NCBI RefSeq assembly: GCF_009914755.1
Contig: NC_060932.1
Source of the DNA: the human T2T-CHM13v2.0 reference genome, Homo sapiens
Reading direction: 5' to 3' (one strand)
Length of the DNA stretch: 64,000 bases
The translations under genes were made by a program, and so were the position numbers. Below, one piece after another: positions 53,250 to 58,913 of the stretch; position 1 is the stretch's first letter, and each line of letters opens with the position of its first letter. The notes beneath the pieces are model-generated. The model saw only the letters and a program-made list of their open reading frames with translations, made no database searches and was not told the DNA's origin.

Positions 53250-53954
53250 GTTGTTTAATTTTTCCTTTCTTAAAGAAAAAATATTTTTAAAAATTTGCCA
53301 TGCATGGTGTTCAAGAATTTGTGGGAGTGTGAACTGGGGTCCTGAAACTGCACTTTTATGACACTTGGGAGTCCTACTTCTCTTCTTGATGCATTTTTCT
53401 CTCTATTTATGCATATTTCCCTCTTGCATTCCAAAAGCCACTGGTCAGAAATTTTATTATTCCTGTTTCATGGGTGAGATGGCTCCTTCTGGCTCCTGGT
53501 TTAGTTAAAGAGTTCACTTATAGCATCTCTGCATCCGAAGGCCTGAGGCTTCAGCTCCTTCTAAGGCAGTGCTACTAAATCTCTGGCCTCAGAGTTAGTC
53601 TTTTCTTTAAAAATGAATAAAAAACCAGAAGTTGGATTATGAAGGTCAGAATCAGACATTCAAGGTCAAATCTAGATTCTGTGTTTAGAAGGGATCAGAA
53701 AAAGCAAATTTGGGTGTTTTTGATACTCTCCTCATTGCAGGATTTGAAATGTGCCCTTCTTATGGATGAGGTATATGGGTAAATAAAAATGTTATTTATT
53801 TGCATCTGTGTTCATTGACCTTTGGACAATATTTTATTTTTTAATAATTAGTCTTATAAGGAGATAATACTGATTATAAAATGGACTGATTTTAATTCAT
53901 GAAGTTGGCAAGTTTTCTAAGTACTAACATGAGACATTTTCAATTTTTTTTTAG

Positions 53955-53993
53955 ATCTAAATCGGAAGGTAGCACACAGACATATGCCAGCCA
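53955..53993 (+). CDS. ADAM32: ADAM32 cytoplasmic repeat exon 1 (SKSEGSTQTYASQ)
   Basis: tactaac branch point, poly-T tract, ag acceptor; gtaagt donor; 39 nt, phase 2-2. Confidence 0.92.
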
Positions 53994-54301
53994 GTAAGTA
54001 GTTTAGAAGGTGTTTTTAAGATACATGTTGAAAATTAAGAGTTAATTGATAATTCACAATTTATTTCCAATTTTTTTTGAACATCAATTGGTAAAGCAAT
54101 GCACTGAAATCCAGACTGCTAATATATAGTCTAATTTAGTTTCTAATAAATTAGTCCTTTCTTCATTTAATAAATGTTTACTGGAAGTCTCTTCTGAGGA
54201 AACAAGGAATAAAATAGCTGATTCTAAAATGAGATAGGACATGTATAATTAGTAAAGAAAAAGAATGTATAGGGCCTAGAAGTTACCCAGCTTGTGTTAT
54301 A

Positions 54302-54487
54302 GAGGCACGTGCTGTATAATAATGTTTTGGTAAATGATAAACCACATGTATGATGGTGGTTCCATAAGATTATAATGAAGGTGAAAAATTCCTGTAGCCT
54401 AGTGATGTTGTAGCCATCACAACATCAGAGAGCAATGCATTACTCACTGGTTTGTGGTGATGCTGGTGTAAGCAAACCTACTGCACA
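54302..54487. mobile_element. Tigger3 terminal fragment (~185 bp), also copied at ~57750-57936
   Basis: ggtggttccataagattataatg..cctagtgatgttgtagccatc..tttgtggtgatgctggtgtaa.caaacctactg. Confidence 0.8.
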
Positions 54488-54974
54488 AAGCAAAATATGC
54501 AGAATTCTCATGAGACAATCAATGCTACTTAACCTTACAAAAAAAAAAAAAAAAGCCACTAAAGGTGGTGATGCCAACAGCCAAAGCAATCTAAAGAAAT
54601 ACAGGTAATTGAAAAACCTCAAAAAAAAAAAATGCTTAGGATCCGCATAGAAGTTAAAAAACAAATATAATCCATTAAACAAGAAATAAAGGAGCTGAAA
54701 AAAGATTTTATTTTTAAATTGTTTAGGGAAATCACTGAGAATACAACATAAACAGAATAATAACATATAAAAGACCAGTTAAGAAACAAAAGAATTCAGA
54801 GACAGAAAATTTAGAGTGGGGAAGAGTCAATATTTGAAGAAATAAGGTCTTGGACTTTTACAAAATTGAAAATGGGTAGTTAAGTGTCTTGACACTGAAA
54901 GAGAATATGGAGTCCACTTCACAGACTGTTAGAAAATAGTGAGAACTGAAGTTATGGTTAAAAAATATGAATAG

Positions 54975-55205: not shown

Positions 55206-55419
55206 AAAGAAAGCAAAAGAAGTAAAAGAAACATAAGTAGGATGAATAGGGACAAAATGCAATTTATTGATGATTAAAAGAACAGAACAATTAGGTCAAT
55301 GTAATTAGCTCTCCTCAACCCATAATTATTGTAGAAATTTATACATCTAGATTCATGACTTCTGTCACAATCTATAAAATTCCATCCATTTGTTTGTTTA
55401 CCCAAGCAGTACACTAATT

Positions 55420-56757
55420 CAGTCATGAGTCGCTTAACACAAAGATACATTCTGAGAAATGCACCGTTAGGTGATTGTGTTATTGTGCGAACATCACAGA
55501 GTGTACTTAAAAAAACCTAGATTGTATAGCCTATTATGTACCTAGGTTATATCCTATAACCTTATATATATAAGCCTGTACAGCATCTTATGGTATGGAA
55601 TACTGTAAGCAACTGTAACTGATTAAGTATGTATTGAAACATAGAAAAGCTACTGTAAAAATAATATAAAAGATAAAAAATGATATGTCTGTATAGGGCA
55701 CTTACAGTGAATGGAACTTGCAGGACTGGAAGTTGCTCCGGGTGAGTCAGTGAGTGAGTGGTGAGTGAATGTGCAGGCCTAGGGCATTACTGAGTCCTAC
55801 TATAAACTGTATAAACACTGTGCACTTAGGCTACACTAAATTTACTTAAAAATTTATTTCTTCAATAATATATTAACCTTACGTTTTACTATAACTTTTA
55901 AAATTGATACACTTTTTAATTTTATAAAACTTTTTGACTCTTGTAATAACACTTAGCTCAAAAACAAACACATTGTACAAATTCTTTATATCTTTATCGG
56001 CTTTTTTGTCTTAATTTTTTTTTCTTTTTAAAATTTTTGGTAAAAACTAAGACAGAAACACATTAGCCTTGGTCTATGCAGGGTCAAGACAGCCAATATC
56101 ACTGTCTTCCATCTCCACATCTTGTCCTGCTGGGAGGTCTTCAGAATCAATGACATACCTGGAGCTGTCATTGGCCAGGATAACAATGCCACCTTCTGGA
56201 TTCGTCTTGAAGGACCTGCTTGAAGTTGTTTTACAGTTAATTTTTTTTCTTTAAATAAGCAAAAGGAGTACGCTCTAAAATAATGATAAAAAGGACAGTA
56301 TAGGCCTGGCGCGGTGGCTCACTCCTGTAATCCCAGCACTTTGGGAGGCTGAGGCGGGCGGATCACCTGAGGTCAGGAGTTCGAAACTAGCCTAGCCAAC
56401 ATGGTGAAACCCCGTCTCTACTAAAAATACAAAAATAAATAAATAAATAAATAAAATTAGCCAGGCGTGGTGGCACATGCCTGTAATCCCAGCTACTCAG
56501 GAGGGTGAGGCAGGAGAATCGCTTGAGCCCAGGATGCAGAGGTTGCAGTGAGACAAGATCTCGACATTGCACTCCAGCCTGGGAGACAGAGCAAGACTCC
56601 ACCTCAAAAAAACAAACAAACAAACAAACAAACAAACAAAAGGATAGGATAGTAAACACATAAACCAAAACCAGTTATTATTATCATTATCATGTATTTT
56701 GTACTGTACATAATTGTATGTGATGTACTTTCATATGACTGGCAGCACTGTAGGTTT
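55420..56757. mobile_element. Remainder of Tigger3(b), opposite in orientation to the 54302-54487 piece, interrupted by an Alu
   Basis: TIR cagtcatgagtcgcttaac at 55420; ends gtactgtacataattgtatg..gactggcagcactgtaggttt, the reverse complement of the sequence expected to follow aaacctactg. Confidence 0.8.
56303..56641 (+). mobile_element. AluS SINE with (AAAT)n linker and (AAAC)n tail
   Basis: Full dimer ggcctggcgcggtggctca...gcaagactcc + tail. Confidence 0.92.
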
Positions 56758-57002
56758 AGATGCTTCTGAAGTTATTCAGCCTCAGCTCCTGTTTAACCTG
56801 TGAGCTCTCAGTTTTATCGTTTTTATTGGCAATAGGAGAAGTCTTTCCTTGCTGTGAGCTTCAGTTGTGTATCAAATGTTTGTGTGTGTGATTTTTTTTT
56901 TCAGCACTCCTCTATGCGAGGAATGGAAAGGGAAAATTGTTTTGCCAGCTCACTCTGCTAGATTGCTTAGGAGGCAGTATAGGTTTTAATTTACAAAATA
57001 CT

Positions 57003-57936
57003 GTCTTTTTTTAAACAATAAATAAAAAGCCAAAAGTTGGGGTATGAAGGTGAGAATCATGCAAAGTCAAACCTATGTTCTATGTTTAGAAATAGCTAAT
57101 CTGTGTTTTTTCTGAACGGATCTATATTCTATGTTCAGAAAAAGCAAATCTGTGTTTTTTGGATACTCTCCTCATTGCAGGATTTGAAATGTGCCCTTCT
57201 TGTGGATGAGGTATATGGGTAGATGAAAATGTTATTTATTTGCATCTATGTTCAGTGACCTTTGGACATCATTTTATTTATTAGTAATTAGTCTTTTAAA
57301 GAGATAATACTAATTATAAAATGGCCTGATTTTCATTCATGAAGTTGGCAAGTTTTCTTAGTACTAACTTGAGACATTGCTTTCAATTTTTTTTTAGATC
57401 CAGCTCAGAAGGCAGCACTCAGACATATGCCAGCCAGTAAGTAGGTTAGAAGAGGTTTTTAAGATACATGTTGAAAATTAAGAATTTATTGATAATTCAC
57501 AATTTATTTCTAAATATTTTTGAACAATGTCAATTGGTAAAGCAATGCACTAAAATCCAGACTGCTAATATACAGTTGAATTTAGTTTCTAATAAATTAG
57601 TCATTTCTTTATTTAATAAATGTTTACTGGAGGTCTCTTTTGAGGAAACAAGGAATAAAATAGCTGATTCTAAAATGAGATAGGACATGTATAATTAGTA
57701 AAGAAAAAGAATGTATAGGGCCTAGAAGTTACCCAGCTGGTGTTACAGAGAGAGCCATGTGCTTCATAACAATGTTTTGGTAAATGAGAAACCACATGTA
57801 TGATGGTGGTTCCATAAGATTATAATGAAGGTGAAAATTCCTACAGCCTAGTGATGTTGTAGCCATCACAACATCAGAGAGCAATGCATTACTCACTTGT
57901 TTGTGGTGATGCTGGTGTAAACAAACCTACTGTGCT
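57003..57936 (+). repeat. Local duplication copy 2 (contains repeat exon 2)
   Basis: Aligns to 53598-54487 and ends at the same Tigger3 position (aaacctactg). Confidence 0.95.
57398..57436 (+). CDS. ADAM32: ADAM32 cytoplasmic repeat exon 2 (SSSEGSTQTYASQ)
   Basis: tactaac branch point, poly-T tract, ag acceptor; gtaagt donor; 39 nt, phase 2-2; 33/39 identical to 53955-53993. Confidence 0.92.
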
Positions 57937-58913
57937 TTGCAGAAGACTCCTTGTGGAGGTCATGTTTTACCCTCCTGTGTGATAAATTTTTACATTAACT
58001 GTTACACTGGAGTTCATGGGAAGCATGGAGTGGTGTCCTTATCCTATACGTGTAAAGAATTAAGGCTCCTGTTTCTCTGTGTGATGATTTTTCCATCCAA
58101 ATTCCTAAGCCAATTTAAGTGCTCCGGGTTCCCGTGCCTCCTGGTGTTCATTTTTCATCTCTACTTCTGAAGCAGTTTCCCTGATGCATCTCTGTGTCTA
58201 GTGGCCACAGCTTTTACTATCCCCATTTCATGGGTGGTACAGCCTTTCAGGGCTTCCAGGTTTAGAGAAGGAGGTCAGCTTCATCTTTCTAGGAAGTCTC
58301 AACTCTTGATAAGCTGATGTGGCTTATGAAACTGACTTGTGTACCCCCAAAGTCATTCAGATTTAGTTTGTATTTACCTTTCGCATTTTCAATTCTCTCT
58401 CTCTCTGTTACTATCACTAGAAATGGCCTTTTCTTTCATAAAGTTTTAGTAAATAGTATGTGTTGTTTTGCACTATTTCTCTGTGTGTGGTATAGGAGGG
58501 GAAATTACCACACCTCCCCATCAGTTCAGTCTTCTTGACATTAGTGTGGATTTTGAATCACAACCTACAGCAATGTATTTATCAACGGATAGACTCTGAA
58601 GGCCAGAATCAGGCATTTAAAATAAAGCATGTATTCTGTGCTAGAAAGTGAAAGGAGAAAAACAAATCAGTTTTCTTGTTCCTCTGCTTAGTTGAATATT
58701 TGAAATTTAAACTTTTTATGGACATTGTATATGAATAAATAAAAACTTGTTTGCATATGCTAATTTAGTAGTGTTTTGAAATTATTCTTCAGTGGTGATT
58801 CTTGGTAGAGAAGAATTAACACAGGTTGTAAAATGATCCGACATTCATTCATTATGGAGGCACATTTGTGTTAAGTATTAACGTGGAAGCATTACTTTTT
58901 CGCTTTCTTTTAG

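What the first reader, a model, noticed from the sequence alone, without database searches (positions are those of the whole stretch)
53598..57960. Duplication-inversion (A, inverted B, A, C) breaking inside Tigger3 around two near-identical tail exons
Seen: both exon-containing copies end at the same Tigger3 position (aaacctactg, ~54483 and ~57932). The rest of that Tigger3 lies at 55420-56757 in the opposite orientation and begins with the same aaacctac, so ~13 nt are shared in inverted form. Segment 54488-54900 is also inverted relative to its paralogs: its reverse complement contains cttatttcttcaaatattgactctt (cf. ~62280) and catgagaattctg (cf. 52833). After copy 2 the sequence continues tgctttgcag, matching the end of the inverted block (tgctttgtgcag). 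Inference: an ancestral A-B-C order became A-inv(B)-A-C by replication template switching (FoSTeS/MMBIR-like), adding one 13-aa unit to the protein. An alternative is older units plus later gene conversion and inversion, suggested by the lower identity in the first ~120 bp of the copies.
Basis: partly seen in the sequence, partly recalled or inferred. Interest (0 to 1): 0.75.

Follow-up and report, generated by a model that had tools for sequence, protein, structure and literature searches.

The report
Ancient four-junction rearrangement duplicating ADAM32 exon
A 4.4-kb stretch of the human sperm-protein gene ADAM32 holds a duplicated 39-base exon around an inverted block, likely made by one local DNA break-and-repair event in an ancestor of monkeys and apes, which would explain why their protein has five short tail repeats where mouse lemur, cats and seals have four; it is a neat but ordinary kind of gene change.

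Summary
Two direct copies (53597-54486, 57002-57932; 72 mismatches in 883 columns) each carry a 39-nt ADAM32 tail exon and end at the same point in a Tigger3-type transposon. The rest of that element lies inverted at 55420-56757 (pieces consecutive in 27 of 29 other genomic copies, 10-14 nt overlap). The old order X-Y-A-B-C therefore became X-A-inv(B)-Y-A-C: four junctions, three break sites each used from both sides, one duplicated segment. Proteins date the extra exon to after the lemur split and before New World monkeys diverged. Divergence between copies is uneven (22/122, then 50/761), which suggests later patchy gene conversion. Best reading: one event, three nearby breaks rejoined out of order plus one templated copy (0.5); pure four-jump template switching (0.25) and three jumps plus later deletion (0.2) remain open. 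It is a known kind of local complex rearrangement, not found described for this gene; function is probably minor. No outgroup DNA was available.

The parts
52548..52860 (+). Older paralog of the B segment (old L1-like remnant on the minus strand plus catgagaattctg end) in its normal orientation, upstream of the first tail exon
   Evidence: score 3906 vs shuffle maximum 1993
53255..53596 (+). Segment X (1): unit-internal sequence that in older units runs straight into Y; here it stops and joins A1 (junction J0 at ~53596/53597)
   Evidence: aligns to 63001-63308 and 58137-58277
53597..54486 (+). Copy A1 (segment 3), the duplicated piece lacking Y in front
53955..53993 (+). 39-nt in-frame tail exon, SKSEGSTQTYAS(Q), ag/gt intact
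   Evidence: annotation given with the task
54296..54486 (+). 5' piece of the Tigger3-type DNA transposon in copy 1; junction J1 at ~54484-54487
54487..56757 (-). Inverted block (segment 4): B (54487-~54985, old L1-ORF1-like remnant), an Alu (~54960-55240), and the transposon's 3' part
55420..56757 (-). 3' part of the same transposon, interrupted by an Alu at 56301-56634; starts 10-14 nt before the point where the 5' pieces end; junction J2 at 56757/56758
56758..57001 (+).
   Evidence: aligns to 63328-63594 (score 8187 vs shuffle maximum 1686) and 58334-58611
57002..57932 (+). Copy A2 (segment 3 in its original Y-A context), with a private 49-nt-period tandem repeat at 57071-57160 (5 of 41 differ)
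57398..57436 (+). 39-nt in-frame tail exon, SSSEGSTQTYAS(Q), ag/gt intact
   Evidence: annotation given with the task
57743..57937 (+). 5' piece of the transposon in copy 2; junction J3 at 57932-57937 (tgct could belong to either side)
57933..58952 (+). Segment C (5): remainder of the next, older unit, whose B part is the inverted one; ends in exon 58914-58952
62276..63866 (+). Older intact unit (B-X-Y-A order, Alu-interrupted) upstream of the exon at 64231; used as the internal outgroup

Best explanation
The region reads X, A, inverted B, Y, A, C, and it likely arose in one repair event in an ancestor of monkeys and apes from an inferred older order X-Y-A-B-C, adding a second copy of a 39-nt tail exon to ADAM32. 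Shown: the present order, the opposite orientation and adjacency of the transposon pieces, and the B-C and X-Y continuity in older paralogous units. The ends were then joined out of order: new A to flipped B, flipped B to Y-A, Y-A to C. The exon is 39 nt with the same phase on both sides, so the frame was kept and the S/T-rich cytoplasmic tail gained one 13-aa unit. Later patchy gene conversion between the two copies, 3.4 kb apart, likely lowered their divergence over much of the 3' 760 nt.
For: Every segment is present once except A. The junction ends pair up at three sites: transposon overlap 10-14 nt, B/C overlap about 6-7 nt, X end and Y start within about 6-9 nt of the spacing in two older units (58 nt vs 49 and 52 between anchors). 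X+Y aligns to the older unit with score 11184 against 4823 for the present order. Proteins: 55 of 85 simian proteins carry both units (apes, Old World monkeys, Aotus, Callithrix), 1 carries one and 29 none (exon-skipping or truncated models). Of 55 non-simian proteins, 19 have one unit followed directly by the next type, including Microcebus P0106; 1 has an unrelated insert, 8 have one unit without the next, 27 are uninformative, and none has two by pattern. Conversion: 22/122 vs 50/761 mismatches, change-point permutation 4 of 1000, run tests p 0.005-0.04. Differences in the first 120 nt fall on both copies about equally (9 vs 11). The 3' part (3.1% per lineage) looks younger than all 8 local Alus (3.8% and up). 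PMC10482687 (passages) argues that duplications over 50 bp at reciprocal junctions need synthesis and cannot come from simple end-joining.
Against: No outgroup DNA could be read, so the old order rests on paralogs that are 60-67% identical and the X|Y match is good only to about +/-10-15 nt. Overlaps at both ends of an inversion are also what a 3-1-4-2 template switch makes (PMC5453318, passages), and the PCAWG preprint (10.1101/181339, section 7) reads local clusters of 3-4 junctions as replicative. Junction microhomologies are 1-4 nt and ambiguous after tens of millions of years. An overlap of X end with Y start is not established (7-nt match, 89 of 2000 shuffles as good). Protein models can skip exons, strepsirrhine evidence rests on one four-unit tail, and no tarsier or colugo protein was retrieved. 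The proteins date the exon, not the inversion. The conversion evidence is moderate and the Alu clock uses only 131 columns.
Confidence: 0.5

Rival explanations
1. Same four-junction structure, made wholly by replication template switching (FoSTeS/MMBIR, a local 4-jump) on an intact template, with a lesion at the transposon site stalling the polymerase twice.
For: The overlaps at both ends of the inversion match the 3-1-4-2 switch type (PMC5453318 passages). Local 3-4-junction clusters are read as replicative in 10.1101/181339 section 7. An 890-nt duplication needs synthesis. Short possible microhomologies (ctgc, tgct) are present at J1 and J3.
Against: The nascent strand would have to leave or land at the same three sites seven times within about 15 nt, with almost nothing lost. 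No one-sided excess of changes was seen in the new copy next to J0 (9 vs 11).
Confidence: 0.25
2. The first reader's three-jump event with the duplicated piece being Y+A, followed later by an independent deletion of Y (about 230-245 nt) from copy 1.
For: It needs only a three-junction event plus a common small deletion. The X/Y register is uncertain by 10-15 nt, and under one reading X overlaps the first ~16 nt of Y (weak).
Against: The deletion would have to begin within about 15 nt of the start of the duplication; by my rough estimate that is a few per cent for an independent deletion.
Confidence: 0.2
3. Both exons are ancient units like the other three; gene conversion made them alike and a separate inversion came later.
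For: Divergence between the copies is uneven, and four synonymous differences lie in 12 exon codons.
Against: Even the least similar part is 82% identical, against 60-68% for the old units. Non-simian tails show one such unit. X and Y fit together as one unit. Both copies contain the same transposon piece with 9 shared derived changes.
Confidence: 0.04

Closest known systems
Local n-jumps (PCAWG; bioRxiv 10.1101/181339, section 7 and passages read)
   Same: Three or four tightly grouped junctions confined to one locale, with a copy gain and inverted joins, on one haplotype.
   Different: Here the event is germline, fixed, under 5 kb and tens of millions of years old; the ends pair up at three sites and nearly nothing is lost.
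Near-reciprocal junction clusters with small gap segments and templated insertion (Setton et al. 2023, PMC10482687, passages read)
   Same: Break ends of different junctions lie next to each other with small gains; one larger segment is copied in cis.
   Different: Their rDup/rDel/rDelDup classes are two-junction, mostly long-range events in HR-deficient tumours; this one has four local junctions.
Four-point template switch, type 3-1-4-2 (Loytynoja and Goldman 2017, PMC5453318, passages read)
   Same: An inverted spacer with short overlaps at both ends, as at the A|B and B|C sites.
   Different: That model has two junctions and short fragments; here 2.3 kb is inverted and two further junctions move Y and duplicate A.
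Tandem duplication of symmetric, in-frame exons (general knowledge, recalled)
   Same: The five 39-nt tail exons of ADAM32 sit in paralogous intron-exon units; this event added the fifth.
   Different: The newest unit is not a plain head-to-tail copy; it came with an inversion and a displaced segment.

Membership tests
Local n-jump (complex local SV) | Three or more junctions confined to one locale | tested here: met
   Four junctions within 53596-57937; Y has no other match in the genome
Local n-jump (complex local SV) | All junctions on one haplotype | tested here: met
   Read from one contiguous assembly sequence
Local n-jump (complex local SV) | Arose in one step, not by successive simple SVs | tested here: inconclusive
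   Reuse of three break sites favours one step, but a later deletion of Y is not excluded without outgroup DNA
FoSTeS/MMBIR | Microhomology or templated insertions at junctions | tested here: inconclusive
   Possible 1-4 nt at J1 and J3; 6-9 extra nt at J0 with no clear template; J2 unresolved
FoSTeS/MMBIR | Extra point mutations in newly copied DNA next to a junction | tested here: not met
   The excess differences next to J0 are two-sided, 9 vs 11 polarised with 5 unresolved; weak test on 60-65% identical outgroups
Break-and-rejoin (NHEJ/MMEJ, balanced) | Both sides of each break retained with little loss or gain | tested here: met
   Overlaps of 10-14 nt and about 6-7 nt; X|Y within about 6-9 nt
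Break-and-rejoin (NHEJ/MMEJ, balanced) | No large copy gain | tested here: not met
   890 nt are duplicated, so end-joining alone is not enough
NAHR between repeats | Long homologous repeats at the junctions | tested here: not met
   No long inverted or direct homology spans any junction; the Alus lie inside the inverted block
Transposase-mediated rearrangement | Breakpoints at the element's terminal inverted repeats | tested here: not met
   The break is about 190 nt inside the element; both termini (about 54296 and 55420) are away from junctions
Tigger3 (Golem) family, subfamily Tigger3b | Match to the library consensus | not testable with these tools
   No repeat library here. The pieces belong to one dispersed family about 1.2 kb long; the names Tigger3 and Tigger3b are recalled, and Repbase lists them (PMC5753468 passages)
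Ectopic gene conversion | Mosaic of identical tracts between paralogs | tested here: met
   Change-point 4 of 1000 permutations; 98-nt identical run p 0.01 overall and 0.04 within the 3' part; moderate support
Ectopic gene conversion | Paralogs cluster within species in a multi-species DNA tree | not testable with these tools
   No primate DNA other than this genome is held

The most novel reading that the evidence does not exclude
A single germline event of three breaks within 3.5 kb, rejoined out of order with one run-off templated copy (a miniature chromothripsis-like event), created a new coding exon that all simian lineages have kept in frame for over 40 million years. Gene conversion has since homogenised much of the intron copies while the two exons kept their distinguishing residue, so the extra phosphorylatable tail unit may be under selection in simian sperm.
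Probability: 0.3. Interest if true: 0.5.

Novelty: new member of a known kind. Interest (0 to 1): 0.3.

Why it matters
It is a base-resolved, datable example of a complex rearrangement of the kind catalogued in tumours and genomic disorders that became fixed and added a coding exon. The older paralogous units let the old order be read from one genome, and a few primate alignments could decide between one event and two. The biological effect is probably small: the unit is 13 residues of low-complexity tail, predicted isoforms skip these exons, and Adam32-null mice were reported fertile (cited in PMC8465997, passage).

Tried and rejected
A counterpart of Y upstream of copy 1, on either strand: none above shuffles. 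A distant donor for Y: only the self hit. Continuation of B into C through other copies of the old L1-like repeat: C does not match them, so that test was uninformative and the paralogous units were used instead. Further hidden copies of the exon unit in window plus 10 kb: none. One-sided hypermutation beside J0: not seen. A templated origin for the J0 bases: only 7-8-nt matches at chance level. Pre-existing long inverted repeats at the junctions: none among the 25 longest of 315 listed. Tarsier, colugo and galago ADAM32: not among the listed hits of three searches (one search listed 120 of 228); tree shrew and rabbit models lacked the tail. A dated age for the transposon: the primary paper is not held, so ages and split times are recalled. 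Literature on this event: five searches naming ADAM32 showed nothing on it in the listings; most subscription papers are not searched. Assembly artefact: rejected, since the copies differ by 8% and both exons appear in T2T, GRCh38 and other simian proteins. My first pattern count also caught the third unit type and was replaced.
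Full report
Setting. The window lies in human ADAM32. Its cytoplasmic tail is built from five 39-nt exons (53955, 57398, 58914, and 64231 and 66681 beyond the window), each ag/gt-flanked and in the same phase. 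They sit in paralogous intron-exon units that are 60-68% alike, except the first two. Script labels u23, u24 and u25 mean the units of the exons at 58914, 64231 and 66681.

Observation. Copies A1 (53597-54486) and A2 (57002-57932) differ at 72 of 883 aligned columns plus a few indels. Both end at aaacctactg. I took the 29 best other genomic hits to the start of the inverted piece (40 of 975 candidates were scored, and the 5' piece was not used in choosing) and aligned the region to them. In 29 of 29 the piece ending A1/A2 and the piece at 56757->55420 have opposite orientation. In 27 of 29 they are directly consecutive with 10 nt (copy 1) or 14 nt (copy 2) of overlap; in two, an insert lies at that point. 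The element is about 1.2 kb, which fits Tigger3b (name recalled). Segment B matches its paralogs at 52548-52860 and 62686-62970 only on the minus strand, and its end runs on into 57933+ in register with both. Part of B is a dispersed old repeat with L1-ORF1-like translation (label recalled), so only the unit-specific end carries the argument.

Between the inverted block and A2 lie 245 nt (Y, 56758-57001) with no counterpart before A1 and no other match in the genome. Y aligns to the older units (63328-63594, score 8187 vs shuffle maximum 1686; 58334-58611, 4301 vs 1601), starting where the sequence before A1 (X) stops aligning (63308). X followed by Y scores 11184 against the older unit; the present order scores 4823. 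Between fixed anchors, X plus Y gives 58 nt where the older units have 49 and 52. So the old order was X-Y-A-B-C and the present one is X-A-inv(B)-Y-A-C, or 1 3 -4 2 3 5. There are four junctions; three break sites are each used from both sides; only A is duplicated and nearly nothing is lost. The resolution at X|Y is about 10-15 nt, and a short X/Y overlap is not established (89 of 2000 shuffles).

Date. Of 85 simian proteins, 55 have both units, 1 has one and 29 none (skipping or truncated models); both units occur in apes, Old World monkeys, Aotus and Callithrix. Of 55 non-simian proteins, 19 show one such unit followed directly by the next type (Microcebus, cats, seals, bats, pika, chinchilla, orca, xenarthrans, mole, hedgehog). 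One elephant model has an unrelated insert, 8 have one unit without the next, 27 are uninformative, and none has two by pattern; by eye Hipposideros P0128 has two similar units. The exon was therefore added after the lemur split and before the New World monkey split (about 65-75 and 43 million years, recalled). No tarsier protein was retrieved. This dates the exon; the inversion is tied to it only by the shared breakpoints.

Uneven divergence. The first 122 columns differ at 22 sites, the other 761 at 50; change-point permutation 4 of 1000; run tests p 0.005-0.04. The early excess is two-sided (9 vs 11, 5 unresolved), and A2 has a private tandem repeat there whose arms differ at 5 of 41. This part therefore looks old, about 9% per lineage against about 11% for the transposon's distance from its majority sequence. 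The 3' part (3.1% per lineage) looks younger than all 8 local Alus (3.8% and up), although the exon predates the simian radiation. Later patchy gene conversion is the simplest reading, with moderate support: the Alu clock has 131 columns and is inflated by subfamily differences. The exons themselves differ by four synonymous changes and one amino acid. That residue is K in unit 1 and S, T, I or N in unit 2 in every simian protein with both units, so the exon's 5' half has stayed distinct.

Mechanism. End-joining alone cannot make an 890-nt copy (PMC10482687, passages). NAHR and transposase action fail their tests. I favour three nearby breaks, one templated copy of A that ran off the broken end inside the transposon, and rejoining out of order (0.5), because this explains the reuse of break sites and the common end of both copies. 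A wholly replicative four-jump remains plausible (0.25): the two overlaps are the 3-1-4-2 pattern (PMC5453318, passages), and local n-jumps are read as replicative (10.1101/181339, section 7). The ancient-units model is rejected (0.04). PMC7702065 (passages) shows that both end-joining and MMBIR signatures occur at inversions.

Novelty and weight. This is a new instance of a known kind. Five searches naming ADAM32 (listings and abstract starts only) showed no description of it, but most subscription papers are not searched and I read no supplements. ADAM32 has been detected in human sperm proteomes (PMC4920383, passage), and null mice were reported fertile (cited in PMC8465997, passage), so a large functional effect is unlikely. 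Interest 0.3.

Noticed in passing
P0128 (Hipposideros ADAM32 tail): Two similar first-type units (SEDSTHTHTTR, SEDSMHSYTTR): possibly an independent duplication of the same exon in a bat, or a drifted second unit.
   Followed up: partly
L005 2846-3160 (window about 66846-67160): A minus-strand Alu follows the fifth tail exon; many predicted orangutan isoforms end in an Alu-like peptide after that exon, so it may be exonised in gene models.
   Followed up: no
window 63862 to L005 205 (about 64205): An Alu sits in the AT-rich stretch just upstream of the acceptor of the fourth tail exon, splitting the paralogous intron sequence about 25 nt before the exon.
   Followed up: partly
window 52878-53250: An LTR-like element (THE1/MST type, label recalled) is inserted between the B-like segment and X of the first unit; the older units lack it.
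   Followed up: no
window 48619-48875: Three tandem copies of an 84-nt unit, 89% alike, in the long intron before the tail exons.
   Followed up: no
window 44598-45286 vs 51143-51837: About 700 nt at 58% identity in direct orientation; probably two old repeat fragments or a very old duplication.
   Followed up: no
L013 and L014 (G000 C24 and C23): Two near-identical copies of the same transposon family carry a ~150-nt insert at almost the same position where the ADAM32 copy broke.
   Followed up: no
P0103, P0106 (Microcebus): Mouse lemur has at least two divergent ADAM32-like proteins with different numbers of tail units.
   Followed up: no
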